64,000 nucleotides of DNA, taken from a virus (Duplodnaviria; Caudoviricetes). The stretch is from positions 902-64,901 of the IMG/VR virus record IMGVR_UViG_3300033121_001938; one strand, 5' to 3'. Made by a program: the position numbers and the translations under genes. This document shows, one piece after another, positions 51,539 through 64,000 of the stretch. The notes under the pieces were generated by a model, which did no database searches, was not told the origin of the DNA, and worked only from the letters and a program-made list of their open reading frames with translations. How positions within the stretch are numbered: position 1 is the stretch's first letter; each line of letters starts with the position of its first letter.

Positions 51539-52027
51539 TCAATAATTTAAGATACAATAATCCATAGTAATTGTCATATTAATATTAATTGCTTGATCAC
51601 TTGATGCCCAATCATATTCACCAAAATCAGCTGTTTTTACGTAAGCACCTTTAATTATCCATTCACCAACAATATCTCCAATTGGACCTAATATATTTAT
51701 TGTAAGATCTTTTTTATAAAAATCTGAATAACCATCTCTACCTGTAACTGATTCATGTGCTAAACGAGCCCATTCCATTACTGATTGAGCTCCACTTGGT
51801 GTAATAGGATCATATAATTCAAGTGACATATCCTTCCACATTACTTTACCTTTAACCTTACGGTAAACATTAATGTGATGTAATATAATTTCACCTGCAT
51901 CAAATCCTGGGGCAGTTGCTTTTTTAATTAAATATGCTGGAATACCATCAATATAACAAATAAAGCGGTTTGGAACTTTTGGTTCAAAAGCCGTGAACAT
52001 TATCTCGTTGGGATTAATTACTGGCAT
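51539..52027 (-). CDS. Tail tube protein (T4 gp19-like)
   Basis: FEPKVPNRF, WKDMSLELYDPI, MEWAR and EWIIKGA; follows the sheath gene. Confidence 0.9.
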   Translation of the reverse strand: MPVINPNEIMFTAFEPKVPNRFICYIDGIPAYLIKKATAPGFDAGEIILHHINVYRKVKGKVMWKDMSLELYDPITPSGAQSVMEWARLAHESVTGRDGYSDFYKKDLTINILGPIGDIVGEWIIKGAYVKTADFGEYDWASSDQAININMTITMDYCILNY

Positions 52028-52080
52028 GTATAAATTATTTTTATTTTAATTCTATTAATAAATATTTGTTTTTTTAACTA

Positions 52081-53805
52081 TTAACCAGGAAATGTTGCTC
52101 CTGTTGGTAATAAATTAAAGTTAAGAATGATAAATTCAGCAGTTTTAGTTGGTTGAATATAAATTTGACCTACTAATTGATTTCTATCAATTACATCATT
52201 AGTGTTATTTGATTCATCCATTATTACTTTATAAGCATATAATCCTTGACGTTGTACTACTGATTCAAGATATGGATTAACTTTTGATAAGAATGAATTT
52301 CTAGTTACTGTTGTATTTTGTTCAAATACAAGGTTACGAGCAACATCACCAATAAATCCTTTTAATGCAATTAATAAACGACGTACATTAACACGATCAA
52401 GAGATGTTGGTTTACGCTGTAATGTCTTTTGACCCCAAACAACTACTCCACTACGAGGAAAAGTAGCAATTGGGTTAACATTAGAATTATATAATGTATC
52501 TCTATCAGATTGTTGTAATCTTCTTTCACATCTTACTACAGATGGAATACCACCTCTGTTTAAACCAGCAGGAGCAAACCATTCAGCTCCTACTTCATCA
52601 TTAAATGCAATTACACCTCCCATTATTGTAGAAGGAGGACACCAAACAACTTTTCCTAAATTATTTGAATATAATTGAACCCAAGGATAATAAGTAGCTC
52701 CATAATTACTTGATTGCCCAGCAGCATTTGTAGTTGCAGCTGTAATTGTAGTTCCATACACTCCATTATCTAATAATGCAATGGCATTACCTCTTGATTC
52801 AACACATGCAATCATATCATCTGCTGCTGATGTATCTAATCCTATACCAGGAGCTAATAATAAATTAAAACTATATTCATCTTTATTTGTTAATAAAGTA
52901 AATGCAATATTAAAATTATCAGGATGAAAACCTTGAATGTTTGTTGTAGTAATATTTTCATTCATTAATTTTTGTAAACCTGTATCTGCAGCTCCCCCAC
53001 TAAATGAACCACCAAAAGAACCACTACCTACTGCAGGTAAAGTATTTGCATAAATTGAAGATTTGAAATTACCATTATTATCTATTGAATCTACGTTTGG
53101 TGTAACAATACTTGCTACACGAACATATTGAGAAGCATTTTTAAAACTACCTGTATAATTTACATATCCATTTGTTACATCATAAACAGGTTTTAAATCA
53201 CCAATTACACGAGAAACAAAGTTTGGAAGTTGAGGATCTAAACTCATGTTAGCCCAAGTTTCTAAAACATTCTTTTGAGCATTATTATCATCACCTCTAC
53301 GAATTATAAGAGAAAAAGTACCACTGCCAGTATTAACGTTTGTTATTTCCCAACGTACATTTAAAGCAGAACCACTATCTAAAGCTCCACTTACCATACT
53401 TGAAGTATTATTCATTTGATTACCCCAAGAAAGAACTTCTAATTGAAAAGATGAAGTTAAAGCAGGATTTGCAGCATTATAAGCCGAAACGTTAGCTGTA
53501 GCATAAGTGCTAATATTATTAGAACCACTTATAATTCTAGTTACTAATAATGATTTACCACCATTTTGGAAATATTCTCTTGCTGCCATTGATGTGAAAT
53601 ATTCATAATAATAGCTTCCACTTTTAAAAATATCACCAAATAATGATAAATATTGGTTATAAGTAGTTACATATGTGGGTACATATGGACGTCCACTAAC
53701 TGTAGGTCCTACTATAGCTGCACCTAATGCAGCAGGGGCTTGAGTATATAAACTTTGGTCTGATTCAATCTGGAATACACCAGGAGAAAGAATAACTTCT
53801 GACAT
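52081..53805 (-). CDS. Tail sheath protein (T4 gp18-like)
   Basis: SPGVF..E.D, YYPWV, WFAPAGLNRG, WGQKTL, RVNVRRLL and FVFEQN-type C-terminus. Confidence 0.95.
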   Translation of the reverse strand: MSEVILSPGVFQIESDQSLYTQAPAALGAAIVGPTVSGRPYVPTYVTTYNQYLSLFGDIFKSGSYYYEYFTSMAAREYFQNGGKSLLVTRIISGSNNISTYATANVSAYNAANPALTSSFQLEVLSWGNQMNNTSSMVSGALDSGSALNVRWEITNVNTGSGTFSLIIRRGDDNNAQKNVLETWANMSLDPQLPNFVSRVIGDLKPVYDVTNGYVNYTGSFKNASQYVRVASIVTPNVDSIDNNGNFKSSIYANTLPAVGSGSFGGSFSGGAADTGLQKLMNENITTTNIQGFHPDNFNIAFTLLTNKDEYSFNLLLAPGIGLDTSAADDMIACVESRGNAIALLDNGVYGTTITAATTNAAGQSSNYGATYYPWVQLYSNNLGKVVWCPPSTIMGGVIAFNDEVGAEWFAPAGLNRGGIPSVVRCERRLQQSDRDTLYNSNVNPIATFPRSGVVVWGQKTLQRKPTSLDRVNVRRLLIALKGFIGDVARNLVFEQNTTVTRNSFLSKVNPYLESVVQRQGLYAYKVIMDESNNTNDVIDRNQLVGQIYIQPTKTAEFIILNFNLLPTGATFPG

Positions 53806-53889
53806 TTTATGTAATTAATTTAATTTAGAATTATCTATCAATAAATATCTATAAATCCATATAAAATGCAAGAAATATAATAAATCTAT

Positions 53890-56105: not shown

Positions 56106-56152
56106 TATTTTTGTTTTAGTTCACTTTCCCTAAAACGGGTTTATAATAAATA

Positions 56153-57790
56153 TTATAAAAGATTAATTACTGTTCTAATAGTCCAATTTTCAGATGGTAA
56201 AACTGTAGATAAAATAATATTTGAATTATTTATTGAAGCTGTTAATACTACTAAGGATGTATTACCAATATCTAATGTTGAAATATCAGTATATTGTATA
56301 CTACTAGTATTCCATACAGCAATAAATTGTCCAGCTCTAGTATTTGAACCTGAAAATATTGTATAATTATAAAATGCTGAATTAAATGAACCTGTATTAT
56401 TTACAGATATAGTAAATGAACTAGAAGTTGCAGAAGAAGTATTATTATTTTTCCATATAGATTGACTTATTTGGAAATTATTTCTTATATAAAAATTATC
56501 TGCACTACTTGCTGTTTGAGCAAATGAAGCACTTAATACATTTGTTATACTACCAGACCAGTAGCTTGCAGTTGATGCAAAACTTGCGCTTGTAATAGAA
56601 CCTTCTAAATAAGAAGCAGTTGAAGAATAACTTGAACTTATTGCATTTGAAATACTTCCTGAGAAGTATGAAGCTGTTTGAGCATTTTTAACCCATGATG
56701 CTGTTGATGCAAAAGAAGCACTTAAAGTATTTATAATTGAACCACTCCAATAGGATGCAGTTAAAGAATAAGATGCACTTAAAACATTTGTAATACTTCC
56801 ACTCCAATAAGATGCTGTTTGTGCGTTTTGAACATAAGAAGCAGTTGTAGCACTTCCTGATAAAGAACCTGTTATTGATCCTGAAATTATTAAACTTCCT
56901 GTTAATCTTAATATTTGATTTAAATTATTTAAATAAGAAGAGGTTGATGCAAAAGAAGCAGATAATGCGTTTGTAATTGAACCAGACCAGTAGCTTGCTG
57001 TTTGAGCATTTTTAACCCATGAAGCTGTTTCTGCTTGACTTGATGATAATGTGTTTGTAATACTTCCACTCCAATAAGATGCTGTTGTAGTATATGAAGA
57101 TGTACCAAATAATGAACCTGTTATACTACCACTTACTCTAAGAGAACCAGTAATTATAACAACACTTCCAGTTATTACTTGAAATACATAAACACTACCT
57201 GATAATATAGCATATATATTTTCTGATGAACCTGAATCATTTACTTCTATTATAGGTCCATTAGTACCTGAAATTGAAAATAATACAGATCCACTTCCTT
57301 TAATATCTAAACTTCCAGATATTTTGGCAGAACCTGTAAAAGGAAAAAGAGTAGAATTAGCAGCATAACTTGCTGTTATAGCATATGATGCACTTGTTGC
57401 ATTAGATATACTACCAGAAAAGTATGAAGCTGTTTGAGCATTTTTAACCCATGAAGCTGTTTCTGCTTGAGATGAACTTAAAGAATTTATTATACTACCT
57501 GACCAATATGAAGCACTTTGTGAATTTCGAACCCAAGAAGAAGTTGATGCAAAAGAAGCAGATAATGCGTTTGTAATACTTCCACTCCAATAAGATGCTG
57601 TTTGTGCTAAATTTACCCAGGATGAAGTTGTAGAATAAGACGAACTTAAAACATTAATTATACTGCCAGACCAATATGAAGTAGTAACAGAATAAGATGC
57701 AGTTCCTAACAAAGAACCTGTTAAGGAACCTGTTATAGAATTTGCTTCTAATACTTTAAAACTACCTGAATCTGAATAATATATTGCCAT
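56153..57790 (-). CDS. Tail fibre-like protein dominated by TASYWSGSI.N..SAS repeats
   Basis: Many imperfect repeats of about 15-18 aa. Confidence 0.65.
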   Translation of the reverse strand: MAIYYSDSGSFKVLEANSITGSLTGSLLGTASYSVTTSYWSGSIINVLSSSYSTTSSWVNLAQTASYWSGSITNALSASFASTSSWVRNSQSASYWSGSIINSLSSSQAETASWVKNAQTASYFSGSISNATSASYAITASYAANSTLFPFTGSAKISGSLDIKGSGSVLFSISGTNGPIIEVNDSGSSENIYAILSGSVYVFQVITGSVVIITGSLRVSGSITGSLFGTSSYTTTASYWSGSITNTLSSSQAETASWVKNAQTASYWSGSITNALSASFASTSSYLNNLNQILRLTGSLIISGSITGSLSGSATTASYVQNAQTASYWSGSITNVLSASYSLTASYWSGSIINTLSASFASTASWVKNAQTASYFSGSISNAISSSYSSTASYLEGSITSASFASTASYWSGSITNVLSASFAQTASSADNFYIRNNFQISQSIWKNNNTSSATSSSFTISVNNTGSFNSAFYNYTIFSGSNTRAGQFIAVWNTSSIQYTDISTLDIGNTSLVVLTASINNSNIILSTVLPSENWTIRTVINLL

Positions 57791-57801
57791 ATCGATAAAT
57801 A

Positions 57802-59505
57802 TTAATTTATTTTTATTTTACCTATTCCACCAACTAATATACCTGTTCTACCACTAACAATCATTGTTGGTAATATTATATTGTTTCCTACTTCTGTAAA
57901 TTCATAATAACCTATATCAGGGGATGAACCATTAAAAGGTAAACCAACATTTATTCCTGCATTTATTAAAGGAGAACTAGATTGTAATGTATAATCATTA
58001 CTACCTGTATTTGTAAATAAAGGATTTATATTTAAATTATTATTATAAGTATAATTTGTTGGATTACCTGCAGGCCAATCAGGAATATTTCCATTTCCAC
58101 ATAAATAAACATCATTATGGGTTACAATACAATTATTTATATGAGTATTAGTTGTACTTCCTCTTAACCAAGCTCCTGTTAATCCTTTAATTATATTGTT
58201 TCTTATATATATACCTTGTCCATCTCCTCCTGCAGCAGACATAGATGACAAATCTATTCCTGTATCTATAGGGTCTGAAGAATCTGCTATCATAGTATTA
58301 TTATAGATTTGCATATTATTTATTTTAGGATCATCAGTTCCTTCACTAATTACTCCTATAAAAAATCTATTTCCAATACCAGATCCATTATAAAAATTAT
58401 AAAAAACATTATTTCTAATAATATTATCAGTCAAGTAACTAAAACCTCCTGACGGCATGCTTCCCATATTATCTCTATCATTTCCTCCGTTTGTTGGGGT
58501 TCTAGTATTAAAAGAAACACCAGAAGTTTTATTAGCAAAAACATTATCTTCTATAATAGCAGTTTCAGTTCTGAATTCTAGAATAATTGATCCTTCTACT
58601 TTTGTATTTTGAACATTATGTACAATATTATTATCATGTATCCAAACACTATAGGGGTAACTACCAGTATAATTATAATTTAAATCAATACTTCCTTGAA
58701 TATTATTTCCATATATCTCTAAACCTCTTATTGAAAATAATTCAATTGCAAAATCCCAATCTCCATTTTCTCCAGGATATGTTCCTGCATATGCTTTTTT
58801 TATTAAATTATTATTATAAATTTTACAACCATCATTAAATCCTTGATTCCAATATTTAATAGGCCATCCATTTTTAAAATTAGCTCTTTGATCTTGTCTA
58901 ATCATATTATCATGTATAGTCATTCCATCTTGAAATCCAAACATAATGGCTCCTTGACCTGTACCATTATACATTGCAGAACAATTAGAAATACTACAAC
59001 TATAAACTGAATTGCCTGTTGCTTTTGTATAACCAATATCACCACCAGGATTATATGTAGTAATACCATTAAAAATAATAGCAGTTTGTTTCCAAGCATT
59101 AAAACTACAATCATGTATTGTAACATTACTTCTACCTGTAACCCAAATAGCAACCCAAGTTTTTACATTTGCTTCAGAAACATATCCTCCGCTAATAGAT
59201 AAACCTGAAATACTTTGGTTTCCATTTGTACCTTCTGCACTATCAAGACTAAGAAAATTACTCCAAGTACCTGTTTGAGTACTATTTATAATTGTTGAAC
59301 CTGTTCCTTCTCCTTCAATACTTACTCCTACTTGTAAATTACATTGAGTAGAAACTGTATGGGTTCCTGCTACTACATGAATTATATCACCACTTGTTGT
59401 TGCATTAGCAGTAGCATATGCTAACGTAGCCCATGCTCCACCTGGTGAATTTACTAATCCATTGTTTGCGTTATTTCCATCTGTTCTAACGTAATAAGTT
59501 GCCAT
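57802..59505 (-). CDS. Right-handed beta-helix (pectate-lyase-like) protein, candidate depolymerase
   Basis: YYVRTDGNNANNG...WATL...GDIIHVVAG, repeated I.NN.I motifs, and C-term NPLF...DYTLQSSSPLINAG...DIGYYE; start at 59505 (TAATG overlap). Confidence 0.75.
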   Translation of the reverse strand: MATYYVRTDGNNANNGLVNSPGGAWATLAYATANATTSGDIIHVVAGTHTVSTQCNLQVGVSIEGEGTGSTIINSTQTGTWSNFLSLDSAEGTNGNQSISGLSISGGYVSEANVKTWVAIWVTGRSNVTIHDCSFNAWKQTAIIFNGITTYNPGGDIGYTKATGNSVYSCSISNCSAMYNGTGQGAIMFGFQDGMTIHDNMIRQDQRANFKNGWPIKYWNQGFNDGCKIYNNNLIKKAYAGTYPGENGDWDFAIELFSIRGLEIYGNNIQGSIDLNYNYTGSYPYSVWIHDNNIVHNVQNTKVEGSIILEFRTETAIIEDNVFANKTSGVSFNTRTPTNGGNDRDNMGSMPSGGFSYLTDNIIRNNVFYNFYNGSGIGNRFFIGVISEGTDDPKINNMQIYNNTMIADSSDPIDTGIDLSSMSAAGGDGQGIYIRNNIIKGLTGAWLRGSTTNTHINNCIVTHNDVYLCGNGNIPDWPAGNPTNYTYNNNLNINPLFTNTGSNDYTLQSSSPLINAGINVGLPFNGSSPDIGYYEFTEVGNNIILPTMIVSGRTGILVGGIGKIKIN

Positions 59506-61844
59506 TATGATTCTCCATTTAAAATTGCTATCCAAAAAGTATTTCCTGTAAAAGAAGTACTACTATTTGAATTTATTACAAAACTTCCAGAATCTTTATT
59601 TTGAATTGTAAATGTTCTTAAAGCTTCACTTGTTATAGAAATAGAATAATTATTATTTATAAAAGGAGTAGTAAAAGAAATAACTGAAGAAGTTAATGGA
59701 GTTCCTCCAAAAGATGAACTAGCAATTATCCCTGATTTTGTTTTTAAACTTCCTATTAAATAAGATGAAGTTGTAGCAAAACTTGCACTTGTGGAATTAA
59801 TAATACTACCAGACCAGTAGCTTGCAGTTGATGTAAAACTAGAACTAACAGAATTTATAATTGAACCAGACCAATAACTAGCAGTAGTAGCATAAGATGC
59901 ACTTGTTGCGTTTGAAATTGAACCAGAAAAATATGAAGCTGTAGCAGCAAATGAGGCACTTGTAACAAATCCTTCTAAGTAAGAAGCTGTTATAGCATAT
60001 GAAGCAGTAATTGCGTTTGATATACTTCCTGAGAAATATGATGCTGTTTGAGCATTTTTTACCCAAGAGGCTGTAAAAGCATATGAAGCAGTAGTAGTAT
60101 AGGATGCAGTACCTAAAAAACTACCAGTAAAAGAACCAGTAAAAGAGGAACCTGTTATACTACCATTAGCTCTTAATGAACCTGAAAAATTATGTAGACT
60201 AGCTTTATATTCAACTTCTCCGTCTGTTATAAGAATTCTACTACCAAATCCATATAATTCAAGTGGTATATCATTTCCATTATGTCCTACAAAAATATTA
60301 TTATTTTCTACCCCTATTAAATTTATAGGAAATCCAAAAGGAGCAACATTTTGAATATATCTGCTTTGAGTTAAAATAATATTAGTAGTAGTAGTATTAC
60401 CAATATTTGTTACTTGTTGTAAGGAAGGAGTTGGAGCAAATGAAGCACTTATAGCATAAGAAGAACTAATAGCATTACTTATACTACCAGAAAAATAAGA
60501 TGCTGTTTGAGCATTTTCAACCCATGAAGCTGTAGAGGCATATGATGCACTTGTTGCATTAGATATACTACCAGAAAAGTATGATGCCGTTTCTGAAAAA
60601 GATGAACTTATTGAATATAAAGAATAAGATGAAGTACCATATAATGAACCTGTTATTCCATTGGTTACATCTAATGAACTGCTAAAAATAATAGAATTCT
60701 GATTGAATAATGCTAAATCACTTCTTGTAAGAAAAGTTCCATTTCCTATTATAAATAATGAACTTGTATTATTTTGTTTATTATATTTTCCTATTACCAA
60801 TTGATAAGACCCTGATGCTATAGTTTCTATACCTTCAGTATGTGAATTTTGACCTAAAGCAATAGTACTTATCCCTTCAGCATGTGAATTAATACCAATA
60901 GCTATAGTTCCGTTCCCTTCAGCATGTGAATTATCACCTGATGCTGTAGTTCCGTTTCCTTCAGCATGTGACCCAAAACCATTAGCAATAGTAGCAACTC
61001 CTTCAGCATGTGAATATGAACCTGAAGTCACTGAATTTCTTCCTTCAGCGTGTGAATCATTTCCATAAGTTTTAGTTCCTTCCCCTTCAGCATGTGATCT
61101 AATTCCTATAGCTTGTGTATTATATCCTTCAGCATGTGACCATGTTCCTATAGCTTGAGTATTAAGTCCTTCAGCATGTCCATAGTCCCATGATATAGTA
61201 CCATCCCCTTCAGCATGTGATCCATCTCCCATAGCAATACTACCTATACCTTCAGTATGGCAATTTGAACCTGATGCTATTGTTACATTTCCTTCAGCAT
61301 GTGAATTATCACCTGATGCTACTGTTGATAACCCATGAGAAATTCCTCTACTAGATGATATATTTAATAATACAGACCCTGAATAAATTACTCTAAATAT
61401 ATTATTAGGATTAGTATCTACACTAGCAGTTACACTACCTGTTGATATTCTTGATAAATTTAAACCTACTACTCCAGAAGCTGAAATATAAGAAGCAGTT
61501 TCAGCATGTGATGCACTTAATATAGAACCTGATTGGATTAATGTTACATCAAATGATGTACCATCTCCTTTAAAAAATGTTATTGTATGATTTACAGATG
61601 AAGCTGTAATTATTCCTTTAAGAGAAAAAGATGAGGTAGATGAATATGAAGATGTTAAAGCATATGAAGAAGATAAAGTAGAAGATCCTATTATTATTAT
61701 TTCTTCTCCACTTGAACCTGATTTTTTCATGTAAGCTACACCATCATATGTATTTAATGCTATTTCACCTAATTCTAATGATGCTGTAGTAGGAATTCTT
61801 CCAGGAACAGAACTACGACGTAGTTTAAGGTATTGATTTGACAT
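59505..61844 (-). CDS. Tail fibre/adhesin with 12 SHAEG (YadA-head-like) repeats
   Basis: N-term LKLRRS..G..P...LELGEIALNT.DG; 14-aa HAEG repeats; Ser/Thr repeats. Confidence 0.75.
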   Translation of the reverse strand: MSNQYLKLRRSSVPGRIPTTASLELGEIALNTYDGVAYMKKSGSSGEEIIIIGSSTLSSSYALTSSYSSTSSFSLKGIITASSVNHTITFFKGDGTSFDVTLIQSGSILSASHAETASYISASGVVGLNLSRISTGSVTASVDTNPNNIFRVIYSGSVLLNISSSRGISHGLSTVASGDNSHAEGNVTIASGSNCHTEGIGSIAMGDGSHAEGDGTISWDYGHAEGLNTQAIGTWSHAEGYNTQAIGIRSHAEGEGTKTYGNDSHAEGRNSVTSGSYSHAEGVATIANGFGSHAEGNGTTASGDNSHAEGNGTIAIGINSHAEGISTIALGQNSHTEGIETIASGSYQLVIGKYNKQNNTSSLFIIGNGTFLTRSDLALFNQNSIIFSSSLDVTNGITGSLYGTSSYSLYSISSSFSETASYFSGSISNATSASYASTASWVENAQTASYFSGSISNAISSSYAISASFAPTPSLQQVTNIGNTTTTNIILTQSRYIQNVAPFGFPINLIGVENNNIFVGHNGNDIPLELYGFGSRILITDGEVEYKASLHNFSGSLRANGSITGSSFTGSFTGSFLGTASYTTTASYAFTASWVKNAQTASYFSGSISNAITASYAITASYLEGFVTSASFAATASYFSGSISNATSASYATTASYWSGSIINSVSSSFTSTASYWSGSIINSTSASFATTSSYLIGSLKTKSGIIASSSFGGTPLTSSVISFTTPFINNNYSISITSEALRTFTIQNKDSGSFVINSNSSTSFTGNTFWIAILNGES
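60830..61320. repeat. Coding tandem repeat of about 42-bp period (12 x H[A/T]EG units)
   Basis: Recurrent CCTTCAGCATGTGA core. Confidence 0.85.
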
Positions 61845-61900
61845 TTATTATTAATTAGTATATACTAAAATTATATTTGCTATATAGCTAATAATAAATA

Positions 61901-62119
61901 TTAATAATCTCCTAAATCTATAGTATCTGCACTTCCACTATCTCCAAACGTATCAAAACCTTTAATTGTTAATGAACCAGAAATATTAGAAATTGGAGCT
62001 ATTTCTGTTGAACCAGATATTATTAAAGATGGATTACCGCTTCCACTTATTGTCAATTGTTGAATAATAGAGTTGTATTGTAAATTTGATAATATTTGTT
62101 TTAATTTTATTTTTGACAT
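61901..62119 (-). CDS. small structural-region hypothetical protein
   Basis: Packed ORF ending DTIDLGDY. Confidence 0.55.
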   Translation of the reverse strand: MSKIKLKQILSNLQYNSIIQQLTISGSGNPSLIISGSTEIAPISNISGSLTIKGFDTFGDSGSADTIDLGDY

Positions 62120-62128
62120 AAAATAATT

Positions 62129-64000
62129 TTAATATAAAGGGGCTAAAAAACCTGCTCCTGTTTTATAATTTAAAGTTGTATTTGAACCTGAAATATTATA
62201 TGAATGTCCGTCTATTTTTAATGCATTTTTTTGTAATAATCTTATAGCTTTTTCTTGGTTTAAAGAAGGATATTTTTGTTTATAAATAGCTAAAAAACCT
62301 GATACCATAAATGCAGCCTGTGATGTACCTCCTAAAAAAGTTTCAGCATGACCTCCATCAATAAAAGTTATTGTTACTTGAGGATTCCCATTGGTTGTAA
62401 TATGAGATCCAAAAGGAGTAGTATCAGTATGGTTATATGATAAAGCATTTACTGCTATTGCTCCTGAAACATTTGCTGGATGAGCAATATATTGACTATT
62501 GTCATTTCCTGATGCACATACTACAATAATTCCTGCATTTATTGCTGATCTTATTGCATTATCTAATCCTGATCCCATATTTAAACTAATATTAATTATA
62601 TGGATTCCATTTTCTATACAATAATTTATAGCATTTATTACTGCTGCTGTTCCTCCATCTAAGACATTCATAGAATATAATTGAGCTCCATGGCATATTC
62701 CATATGTTACAGGAAGAGAACCTGTAAATGCACTATATATTTGACCCATTATATTACATGCTTTTCCTCCATGATTATATAAATCATCGGGTCCAAATCC
62801 AGTATAATCCTGTCGTATTAAAGTAGGAGTTATTGATACTGCTGATAAATTAGCTCCTGTATCTAATATAGCTACTTTAACTCCATTTCCATTAAATCCT
62901 GATAGATGAGCCTCTTTTATTTTTAAATAATCATTAACTGGAACTCCAATATTTGGAGCAATTAAATCAGGATGTCCTCTAAAAGACATTGTTGGAGGAT
63001 TATATAATAATGCTTTATTTTTATTTTCAGGGATATAATTTTCTTTAATATTTAATCCTTTACTAATAAGTAATTGATATTCTTCTTTAGTTAATTCTAT
63101 TATAATAGTAGATACATGGTTAAAATGAAAATGAATAACATATTTATCTAATCCTAAATCATAAGAAGCAGTATGAAAATTATTTAATATTAACCAACCA
63201 TTTATATCAGATAAAAATGTCGCTCTACTTGTTTTATCTAAAAATACTTCCTCTGATAAAAATTGACTTCCACTAGAATAAGAAAGAGAAGTATGTAGTA
63301 TACCAGGGGCTCCTATTCCTAAATGTGATTCTATACTAGAACCTGTTGTATATACTTCTGAATAATTTGATATTAATGTTGGGAAATTTGTTATACTTCC
63401 ACTTATACGTGAAAACATATATCTGTTTGATATAGAAGAAGTAATAAATTTTCCTATTGCTACTATTTCATCATCATCTTCAAGAGTAAATTTTAGACTA
63501 CTTGTATTAAAAACAGTTAAAATACTATCTCCTATTTCATTTAATGATACTATAGAAGAAGGTAAATATTGACCATTGATATAAAAAGTAAAATTGTTTA
63601 CTGAAGTTGAAGGTAAACTTGAACCAGATGATGGTTGTAATAGATTTACTCCTTGGAAAATTGCAGAATCTCCGTTATATATAATAGAAGCTATTTTAGT
63701 AATATTTGTATTTAAATATTCTGAATCTAATGAAGTTGATGACCCACTTATATTATATATATTAGTAGTATTATTATGAATATTTGTTCCTCCTCCTATA
63801 AATGAAGTAGCAGCCATTGTATTATTTGCAGGTGATTTATTTACAAATTTCATTTGATCTATTCCTCCTGATTGACCATTATTATCTATTACTTCTAAAT
63901 CAAATATTATTTGAGATTTTGTATAATATTTACTTTTAGCAACACCTAAATCTTTATGAATGTTATCAGGGATAATATATCCATTTAATTTAATATTAAA
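62129..64000 (-). CDS. 3' part of a neck/tail-completion-like protein fused to a C-terminal subtilisin (S8) peptidase
   Basis: Frame stays open from 63853 to the window edge (FNIKLNGYIIPD...GGIDQ-MKFV). Protease motifs VAILDTG, NHG, ASGND and GGTSQA. Confidence 0.8.
   Translation of the reverse strand, partial: FNIKLNGYIIPDNIHKDLGVAKSKYYTKSQIIFDLEVIDNNGQSGGIDQMKFVNKSPANNTMAATSFIGGGTNIHNNTTNIYNISGSSTSLDSEYLNTNITKIASIIYNGDSAIFQGVNLLQPSSGSSLPSTSVNNFTFYINGQYLPSSIVSLNEIGDSILTVFNTSSLKFTLEDDDEIVAIGKFITSSISNRYMFSRISGSITNFPTLISNYSEVYTTGSSIESHLGIGAPGILHTSLSYSSGSQFLSEEVFLDKTSRATFLSDINGWLILNNFHTASYDLGLDKYVIHFHFNHVSTIIIELTKEEYQLLISKGLNIKENYIPENKNKALLYNPPTMSFRGHPDLIAPNIGVPVNDYLKIKEAHLSGFNGNGVKVAILDTGANLSAVSITPTLIRQDYTGFGPDDLYNHGGKACNIMGQIYSAFTGSLPVTYGICHGAQLYSMNVLDGGTAAVINAINYCIENGIHIINISLNMGSGLDNAIRSAINAGIIVVCASGNDNSQYIAHPANVSGAIAVNALSYNHTDTTPFGSHITTNGNPQVTITFIDGGHAETFLGGTSQAAFMVSGFLAIYKQKYPSLNQEKAIRLLQKNALKIDGHSYNISGSNTTLNYKTGAGFLAPLY

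What the first reader, a model, noticed from the sequence alone, without database searches (positions are those of the whole stretch)
62129..64000. Subtilisin protease fused in frame to a neck/tail-completion-like protein
Seen: the reading frame extends 49 codons past the track start to the window edge (FNIKLNGYIIPD...). It continues without a stop through a Ser-rich region into a segment resembling an I9 propeptide (IIIELTKEEYQLL) and an S8 domain with D (LDTG), H (NHG), oxyanion N (SGND) and S (GTSQA). Inference: FNIKLNGYIIPD resembles the end of gp15-like tail-completion proteins. The phage would then display or self-process a serine protease at the neck, for example to cut host surface or biofilm proteins or to mature fibres.
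Basis: partly seen in the sequence, partly recalled or inferred. Interest (0 to 1): 0.7.

Follow-up and report, generated by a model that had tools for sequence, protein, structure and literature searches.

The report
Tail-terminator protein fused to a subtilisin protease
In an uncultured T4-like phage, probably of Flavobacteria, the ring protein that caps the contractile tail continues without a stop into a small unknown domain and a complete subtilisin protease, so the virus may carry six proteases at its neck; no other such fusion turned up in the databases searched.

Summary
ORF 62129-64000(-) is open to the window edge, which is also the end of a 33%-complete viral contig. The called start (M50, ATG 63851-63853) is an artefact of that truncation.

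- **Residues 1-185:** 56-58% identical to the C-terminal 180 residues of a common ~420-aa phage protein with no Pfam or PHROG match. That protein folds like the T4 gp15 tail terminator (VIA Z 11.9; Foldseek E 3e-6). Relatives stop 1-3 residues after AIGKF.
- **Residues ~190-292:** this is not a mere Ser-rich linker. It is homologous to ~130-aa proteins encoded directly upstream of free phage S8 proteases.
- **Residues ~293-623:** 61% identical to those free ~350-aa proteases, with D380/H410/N499/S560 intact.

Relatives have terminator, then a 72-aa ORF, then a fibre gene. Here the two-gene cassette sits between terminator and 72-aa ORF, joined at two in-frame junctions. Contigs from two studies cover the first junction without differences, and one also reaches 68 nt into the protease-homologous part.

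No fused relative appeared among 5.8 billion proteins. The terminator's N-terminal ~242 codons lie off the contig, and display at the neck is inferred. New variant of known kinds; moderate interest.

The parts
63881..64000 (-). Residues 1-40: last core beta-strand of a gp15-like tail terminator (FNIKLNGYIIPD) plus the segment SKYYTKSQIIFDLEV, after which the shortest family members end. This is the likely sheath-binding strand. The N-terminal ~242 codons lie beyond the contig end.
   Evidence: alignment to residues 243-283 of P0007/P0072; fold; 280-285-aa members end here; PMC12929629 for the sheath contact made by the gp15 C-terminus.
63731..63880 (-). Residues 41-90: low-complexity G/N/T/S-rich spacer of the terminator family. 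It contains the called start ATG 63851-63853 (M50) with an AGGAGG 9 nt upstream, which is an artefact of gene calling on a truncated gene.
   Evidence: Relatives read IDELRF / IDEMKF in frame at this place. pLDDT is below 35 in the family model at residues 254-323.
63446..63730 (-). Residues 91-185: C-terminal small beta domain of the terminator family, ending AIGKF. Relatives stop 1-3 codons later.
   Evidence: pLDDT is about 85 in the model. 34 of 35 family-invariant positions in the window-encoded part (residues 1-185, this domain and the two parts before it) are kept.
63125..63433 (-). Residues ~190-292: domain homologous to a ~130-aa protein family of unknown function. In relatives this family is a separate gene immediately upstream of the free protease. 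Here it lacks its first ~16 and last ~12 residues and is fused on both sides.
   Evidence: 7 representative clusters, E down to 1.7e-9, covering 76 of the 82 residues searched; alignment with P0121, P0124, P0126 and the ORFs upstream of the protease in L015-L017; coding signature.
62954..63124 (-). Residues ~293-349: remnant of the I9-like propeptide (NHVSTIIIELTKEEYQLLISKGLNIKEN) and the pro-mature junction. The first ~28 residues seen in free relatives (MKKYIIEY..ILGLLGH) are missing.
   Evidence: alignment with free proteases. No Pfam I9 hit. Model confidence is low.
62132..62953 (-). Residues ~350-623: subtilisin (S8A) catalytic domain. Catalytic residues: D380 at 62861-62863, H410 at 62771-62773, oxyanion N499 at 62504-62506, S560 at 62321-62323. 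The stop codon is at 62129-62131.
   Evidence: AF2 core pLDDT is above 90.
61901..62119 (-). 72-aa ORF (MSKIKLKQILSNL...). In relatives it follows the terminator gene directly, so it marks the right-hand border of the inserted cassette.
   Evidence: 57% identity to the ORF after the terminator in L002; also found in L003, L004, L112.
57802..59535 (-). 577-aa beta-helix protein. It is 43% identical over 517 residues to the protein that directly follows the free protease in L016, so the protease's usual neighbour is also present here.

Best explanation
The ORF is the 3' ~72% of a gene cut by the contig end. It encodes a mosaic virion protein made of four parts in order. First comes a T4 gp15-like tail (sheath) terminator with its family-typical C-terminal beta domain. 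Next comes a ~100-residue domain of unknown function, then a shortened I9-like propeptide, and last a complete subtilisin (S8A) domain. The whole protein would be about 865 residues if the missing N-terminus resembles that of relatives.

It arose when a two-gene cassette (a ~130-aa protein plus an S8 protease) was placed between the terminator gene and the 72-aa ORF that normally follows it. Other phages carry this cassette in tail-fibre and beta-helix clusters. Both gene boundaries were then removed by in-frame joins.

Shown: the homologies, the open frame, the synteny and the catalytic residues.

Inferred: the terminator forms a hexameric ring on top of the tail, and its C-terminal segment ends on the outside of the top sheath ring, as in T4. 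Up to six protease modules would therefore hang on flexible tethers at the neck. There they would cut host-surface or matrix proteins, alongside the neighbouring beta-helix enzyme. If the propeptide is auto-cleaved as in subtilisins, the protease would instead be held or released there. The host is probably a Flavobacterium-like Bacteroidota, also by inference.
For: - Terminator part: 56-58% identity over 185 residues to a >500-member family. 34 of 35 invariant positions are kept. The family model's best structural matches are T4 gp15 (Foldseek E 2.8e-6; VIA-align Z 11.9, followed by >30 tail terminators and injection-system caps).
- Gene context: relatives have major capsid protein, PhoH, head-tail adaptor, small ORFs, this family, then fibres or sheath. 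The window itself carries sheath and tube genes.
- Family C-termini are modular: 280, 315-335, 364, 404-447 and 548 aa forms exist.
- Middle domain: homologous to ~130-aa proteins encoded just upstream of free proteases in L015-L017.
- Protease: 61% identity to free 353-aa P0001, with all catalytic columns conserved.
- Synteny with an 'empty site' in L002, L003, L004 and L112.
- Junction: sequence identical in contigs from two studies.
- Middle stretch (residues 186-267, most of the middle domain): coding periodicity in this frame only.
- No late-promoter-like motif inside the ORF.
- Beta-helix neighbour shared with L016.
- PMC12929629: the gp15 C-terminal domain binds the gp18 C-terminal domain at the sheath surface.
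Against: - The terminator's N-terminal ~242 codons are not on the contig, so the full protein is inferred from homologues.
- This is the only fused example. No protein covering both parts appeared among 5.8 billion clusters, so a recent neutral or mildly harmful fusion cannot be excluded.
- The Logan contigs are low-depth (2-4x), one run may be the source sample, and they leave 63066-63133 uncovered.
- The family model is only moderately confident (mean pLDDT 60).
- The middle domain and propeptide were modelled at low confidence.
- The propeptide lacks its first ~28 residues, so folding or inhibition may differ.
- A neck position is ~a tail length away from the baseplate, which is an unusual place for a host-surface enzyme.
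- There are no expression or virion data.
Confidence: 0.62

Rival explanations
1. Polyprotein that is not displayed. The fusion only ensures co-expression. The subtilisin cuts itself off at the pro-mature junction, as subtilisins do, and acts as a free soluble enzyme at lysis or during fibre maturation. The virion keeps only terminator + unknown domain + propeptide stump.
For: The layout around the pro-mature junction (..PNIGVPVNDYLKIKEAHLSGFNGNGVKVAILDTG) matches that of classical subtilisins (established knowledge of subtilisin BPN'/E maturation). Relatives make the protease as a free 350-aa protein.
Against: The cleaved propeptide of subtilisins stays bound as a tight inhibitor, so even after cleavage the enzyme could remain tethered. 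The propeptide here is truncated. Nothing here tests cleavage.
Confidence: 0.2
2. Accidental or artefactual fusion. A sequencing or assembly error, or a recent non-adaptive mutation, removed stops. The working products are a normal ~430-aa terminator and separate small-protein and protease products.
For: It is unique among more than 500 family members and all protease relatives. Metagenomic contig of low coverage.
Against: Two separate in-frame joins are needed. Each removed gene ends while keeping the domain cores. There is no stop in 438 codons of 27%-GC DNA, and GC3 periodicity is kept. Identical junction sequence occurs in contigs of two studies. Invariant residues are conserved in both flanking parts.
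Confidence: 0.1
3. Independent translation from M195 (MFSRISG) gives a free 429-aa unknown-domain-protease protein. The read-through fusion is a minor product.
For: Genes in this contig generally lack Shine-Dalgarno sequences. Examples are the starts of the 72-aa and 779-aa genes. A missing ribosome-binding site therefore does not exclude initiation.
Against: M195 aligns with an internal hydrophobic position (KY[LVM]FS) of the ~130-aa family, whose members start ~16 residues earlier. There is no stop upstream, so ribosomes from the terminator part read through. No late-promoter-like motif or terminator lies inside the ORF.
Confidence: 0.08

Closest known systems
Bacteriophage T4 gp15, tail terminator / tail sheath stabiliser and completion protein (PDB 4HUD, 4HUH, 3J2M, 9MKB)
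   Same: It is the best structural match of the family's core. Both belong to a T4-like gene set with sheath and tube, placed after the head-completion genes. In T4 the C-terminal segment contacts the top sheath ring (PMC12929629).
   Different: About 11-14% sequence identity and no Pfam or PHROG hit. This family adds a 140-170-residue C-terminal spacer and beta domain. Here it further adds an unknown domain and a protease; gp15 has 272 residues and no enzyme.
Flavobacterium phage vB_FspM_immuto gp057 (YP_010114626.1, 'hypothetical protein'), genus Immutovirus
   Same: Closest protein of an isolated phage: 41.5% identity to P0007 over its full length. It has the same position after PhoH and the head completion protein and before the fibre genes.
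   Different: It stops after the beta domain, carries no protease, and is unannotated.
Free phage S8 proteases with an upstream ~130-aa partner gene (P0001-P0006; loci L015-L017) and the S8-BspA-LRR protein of L001
   Same: 44-61% identity across propeptide and catalytic domain. They have the same partner domain and the same beta-helix neighbour.
   Different: They are separate genes in fibre clusters and none is joined to a terminator. Here the partner lost both ends and the protease lost its first ~28 residues.
Bacterial subtilisins (subtilisin DY, BPN', Savinase; MEROPS S8A) and Bacillus-phage S8 proteins (phrog_3677)
   Same: Catalytic D-H-S order, oxyanion Asn, overall fold.
   Different: About 30% identity. 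The His motif NHGGKAC replaces HGTH, and there is no signal peptide. The protease is attached to a virion protein.
Peptidase S74 intramolecular-chaperone domains at the C-termini of tailspikes and fibres; phiTE tail terminator with a C-terminal extension (PMC11972413)
   Same: A protease placed at the C-terminus of a virion protein (established knowledge of the S74 family); a terminator that carries extra C-terminal sequence lying on the sheath.
   Different: S74 is an unrelated fold that only cuts itself off. The phiTE extension is structural, not enzymatic.

Membership tests
Tail terminator proteins of contractile tails (T4 gp15-like) | Tube-protein-like core fold (beta-sandwich flanked by a helix) shared by terminators | tested here: met
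   Tested on the homologue P0007, of which the window holds only the last core strand. Foldseek top hits are 4huh/9mkb/4hud (gp15), E 3e-6. VIA-align gives 3j2m_A Z 11.9 (rmsd 4.1 A, 155 residues aligned), followed by >30 terminators at Z 8-11. Model pLDDT is only ~70 in the core.
Tail terminator proteins of contractile tails (T4 gp15-like) | Gene placed between the head-completion/adaptor genes and the tail genes, in a genome with sheath and tube | tested here: met
   Relatives L002, L004 and phage immuto. In L104 and L168 the terminator is followed by sheath and tube. The window has phrog_23 sheath and phrog_4542 tube.
Tail terminator proteins of contractile tails (T4 gp15-like) | Sequence membership in a curated terminator family (Pfam/PHROG) or in a solved structure by sequence | tested here: not met
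   No Pfam, PHROG or PDB sequence hit. Assignment rests on fold and context only.
Tail terminator proteins of contractile tails (T4 gp15-like) | Hexameric ring capping tube and sheath; C-terminal strand augmenting the sheath C-domain sheet | not testable with these tools
   Inferred from T4 (PMC12929629). Needs cryo-EM or multimer modelling.
Peptidase S8 (subtilases), subfamily S8A | Profile match above the curated threshold | tested here: met
   PF00082 scores 84 bits against a cut-off of 21.8, residues 371-603. Subtilisin DY E 9.7e-27.
Peptidase S8 (subtilases), subfamily S8A | Catalytic triad in the order Asp-His-Ser plus the oxyanion Asn | tested here: met
   D380, H410, N499 and S560 lie at invariant columns of the relatives and align with the D32/H64/N155/S221 motifs of subtilisin.
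Peptidase S8 (subtilases), subfamily S8A | N-terminal I9-type propeptide acting as folding chaperone and inhibitor | tested here: inconclusive
   Free relatives show a beta-alpha-beta-beta-alpha-beta-like 60-residue leader. There is no Pfam I9 hit. Here the first ~28 residues are replaced by the unknown domain, and model confidence is 46-59.
Peptidase S8 (subtilases), subfamily S8A | Proteolytic activity | not testable with these tools
   Needs expression and assay.

The most novel reading that the evidence does not exclude
The C-terminus of the tail terminator is a natural display site at the phage neck. In this phage it carries six active subtilisins, attached through a dedicated ~100-residue adaptor domain that elsewhere works as a separate docking or chaperone protein. 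These would shave the protein-rich surface or matrix of Flavobacterium-like hosts, or free virions from debris. This would be a neck-borne virion protease, a class not described so far in the papers searched.
Probability: 0.3. Interest if true: 0.65.

Novelty: new variant of a known kind. Interest (0 to 1): 0.5.

Why it matters
- It names a large, unannotated protein family (over 500 metagenomic members, and 'hypothetical protein' in Flavobacterium phage immuto) as the tail terminator of these T4-like phages.
- It shows that the family's C-terminus is a swappable module.
- If the fusion is functional, the phage neck, and not only the baseplate, can carry enzymes. The ~130-aa partner protein would then gain a testable role as adaptor or chaperone of phage subtilisins.
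- It suggests a tolerated fusion site for displaying cargo on myophage virions.
- The biological role of phage S8 proteases is essentially unstudied, so a covalent link to a defined virion position gives a handle for experiments.

Tried and rejected
- **Circular join of the contig.** It extends the frame by 43 codons to an ATG overlapping the upstream gene. I rejected it because the contig is linear and 33% complete. The family's N-terminal 242 residues are nowhere in the contig, and the joined sequence does not match homologues.
- **M50 with AGGAGG as the true start.** Rejected, because homologues align through it.
- **The middle stretch as a mere linker or former intergenic DNA.** Rejected after one search found homologues.
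- **Fused relatives.** Searched among proteins of near and longer length: none.
- **IMG/VR and metagenome scans with the protease profile.** They gave only free or LRR-fused forms.
- **Alignments A3 and A4** of the whole fusion with both homologue sets were misaligned by MAFFT and were not used for folding.
- **ESM Atlas and Pfam** gave nothing for the ~130-aa family.
- **Literature searches** for subtilisin or S8 with phage tail, virion or terminator found no relevant paper.
- **Promoter and terminator consensus scans** were at chance level.
- **Logan contigs** leave 63066-63133 uncovered. This shows nothing either way.

Full report
**Observation**

On the minus strand a frame ending at TAA 62129-62131 is open up to base 64000. 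That is 623 codons, of which 49 lie upstream of the ATG at 63851-63853 that a gene caller would choose. The window is bases 902-64901 of a 64,901-bp record. The record is an IMG/VR virus contig classed as linear and 33% complete. The gene is therefore cut by the end of the contig.

I tried joining the contig into a circle. This prolongs the frame by 43 codons. However, the join does not match homologues, and the missing part of the protein is nowhere in the contig, so the join is not real.

**What the N-terminal 185 residues are**

A search of 5.8 billion protein clusters returned two sets of partial relatives. More than 500 proteins of about 404-447 residues match residues 1-185 of the query at 52-58% identity. 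The match is to their own residues 243-423. These proteins end 1-3 residues after the motif AIGKF.

The family has no Pfam, PHROG or PDB sequence match. An AlphaFold model built on 28 members has mean pLDDT 60, about 70 in the core and about 85 in the C-terminal domain. Two independent structure searches with it gave:
- Foldseek against the PDB: T4 gp15 tail terminator on top (4huh, 9mkb, 4hud; E 3e-6), followed by terminators of P1, 812, T5, E217 and others.
- VIA-align against 48,161 representative chains, run without Foldseek: gp15 (3j2m_A) at Z 11.9, followed by more than thirty tail terminators and caps of contractile injection systems at Z 8-11.

Context agrees. In relatives the gene order is major capsid protein, PhoH, head-tail adaptor, two or three small ORFs, this family, then fibre genes or directly sheath and tube. 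The window itself encodes a tail sheath (52081-53805) and a tube (51539-52027).

The closest protein of a cultured phage is the 'hypothetical protein' gp057 of Flavobacterium phage immuto (41.5% identity, full length). It sits after PhoH and the head completion protein.

FNIKLNGYIIPD is the last strand of the terminator core. The segment that follows (SKYYTKSQIIFDLEV) is where the shortest family members (280-285 residues) end. In T4 and other myophages the corresponding C-terminal segment joins a beta-sheet of the top sheath ring (PMC12929629; PMC11972413). Anything added after it should therefore emerge on the outside of the neck.

The family's C-termini are modular. Core-only forms, forms of 315-335 residues, a 364-residue form with another tail, the common beta-domain form and a 548-residue form all occur. 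In L003 the beta domain is also present as a second, stand-alone 111-aa ORF.

In the window, 34 of 35 family-invariant positions are kept.

**What the C-terminal part is**

Residues ~293-623 are 61% identical to a free 353-aa protein, P0001, and 40-55% identical to nine others. Pfam S8 scores 84 bits. A profile of the group hits subtilisin DY, BPN' and Savinase at E 1e-24 to 1e-26. The AlphaFold core has pLDDT above 90. D380, H410, N499 and S560 lie at invariant columns.

Free relatives start with a short beta-alpha-beta leader resembling a subtilisin propeptide. Here only its second half is present (NHVSTIIIELTKEEYQLLISKGLNIKEN).

The free proteases lie in fibre clusters, followed by large beta-helix proteins (L015, L016). 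In L001 the protease is fused to a BspA-type leucine-rich-repeat domain. The window's own 577-aa beta-helix protein (57802-59535) is 43% identical to the one that follows the protease in L016.

**What the middle is**

I first took residues 186-267 for a Ser-rich linker. They are open only in this frame, have GC3 of 0.07 like the flanking parts, and stay open in only 0.06% of shuffles.

An exhaustive HMMER search of 1.84 billion representatives then found seven clusters (E 1.7e-9 to 9e-5) matching nearly the whole stretch. They are proteins of 128-270 residues. The 128-131-aa ORFs immediately upstream of the free protease in L015, L016 and L017 belong to the same family and align up to about residue 292 (..SYDLGLDKYVI). 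Two members carry SprB repeats, which points to Bacteroidota. Pfam and the ESM Atlas give no function.

The window ORF thus joins three units that are separate genes elsewhere. At the first junction the terminator's stop and about 16 codons of the small protein are gone. M195 aligns with an internal hydrophobic position of that family, so it is not an old start codon. At the second junction about 12 codons of the small protein and about 28 of the protease are gone.

**Synteny**

In L002, L003, L004 and L112 the terminator gene is followed within a few bases by a 72-86-aa ORF (M..KLKQI..) and then by a fibre gene starting MSNQ.LKLRRSS. The window has the same 72-aa ORF (61901-62119, 57% identity to L002) and the same fibre start. 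The 1.3-kb unknown-domain-protease segment sits between AIGKF and that ORF.

**Is the fusion real DNA?**

Logan contigs with no differences were laid on the region:

| Run | Study | Region covered | What it bridges |
|---|---|---|---|
| X5 | P3 | 63134-63987 | Both junction areas of the middle domain |
| X1 | P1 | 63377-63603 | The AIGKF junction |
| X2 | P1 | 63291-63460 | The AIGKF junction |

No stop variant was seen. Depth is low (2-4x), one run may be the source sample, and 63066-63133 is not covered.

No protein covering both parts exists in the 5.8-billion-cluster collection, in either the near or the longer length range. No late-promoter-like motif lies inside the ORF. The motif in question is ATATTTATT, found before the fibre, sheath and tube genes at 61893, 56145, 53840 and 52057.

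**Mechanism**

Shown:
- A single open frame encodes terminator C-terminus, unknown domain and S8 protease.
- The conserved residues of both flanking families are intact.

Inferred:
- As terminator, the protein would form the hexameric ring capping tube and sheath.
- Its added parts would leave the ring at the sheath surface, placing up to six proteases at the neck.
- By analogy with subtilisins, the enzyme may cut its own pro-mature junction and stay bound to, or be released from, the tethered propeptide.
- The association of the cassette with beta-helix and fibre genes in other phages suggests action on the host surface or matrix.
- A role in maturing neighbouring fibres, or a neutral recent fusion, cannot be excluded.

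**Comparison and novelty**

The parts are known kinds: a gp15-like terminator and an S8A subtilase. Three things are new:
- the assignment of this large unannotated family as terminators with modular C-termini;
- the ~130-aa partner family of phage subtilisins;
- their three-way fusion.

I found no counterpart for the fusion in the sequence collections or in the papers searched.

The main limits are the truncated gene, the single occurrence and the lack of any expression or virion data.

Noticed in passing
L003:6528-6863 (IMGVR_UViG_3300032225_000931): Right after its terminator gene this relative has a 111-aa ORF that is a stand-alone copy of the terminator's C-terminal beta domain, also ending ..IIAIGKFA. 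The domain therefore exists both fused and free.
   Followed up: partly
window 61901-62119 (-): A conserved 72-aa ORF (MSKIKLKQILSNL.., ending ..DLGDY) always lies between the terminator and the first fibre gene in relatives (L002, L003, L004, L112). Its function is unknown, with only a sub-threshold Pfam EAD6 hit.
   Followed up: partly
window 61893-61901, 56145-56153, 53840-53848, 52057-52065 (- strand): The motif ATATTTATT lies just upstream of the fibre, 363-aa, sheath and tube genes, as a late-promoter-like element would. Overall its count in the window is not above chance (17 against 14.5 expected).
   Followed up: partly
P0123, P0125 (proteins): The ~130-aa partner domain also occurs fused behind SprB repeats (Pfam PF13573). 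SprB repeats are typical of Bacteroidota gliding-motility surface proteins, so this hints at the host group and possibly at surface binding.
   Followed up: no
L001:963-3065: A relative carries the same protease as the N-terminal half of a 700-aa protein, with a C-terminal BspA-type leucine-rich-repeat domain. This is a different fusion partner for the same enzyme.
   Followed up: partly
L157:1935-3581, L160:3254-4348: Terminator variants of 548 and 364 residues have other C-terminal modules without Pfam matches. The 364-aa form ends ..LNDLPTSDPLV.GVIWNNGGVPTISNG.
   Followed up: no
window 59505-61844 (-) and G000:C1:1-130: The 779-aa fibre has YadA-head-like repeats (Pfam PF05658, 1e-14). Separately, the other contig end happens to be open in frame with this ORF for 43 codons, which could mislead a circularisation.
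   Followed up: yes
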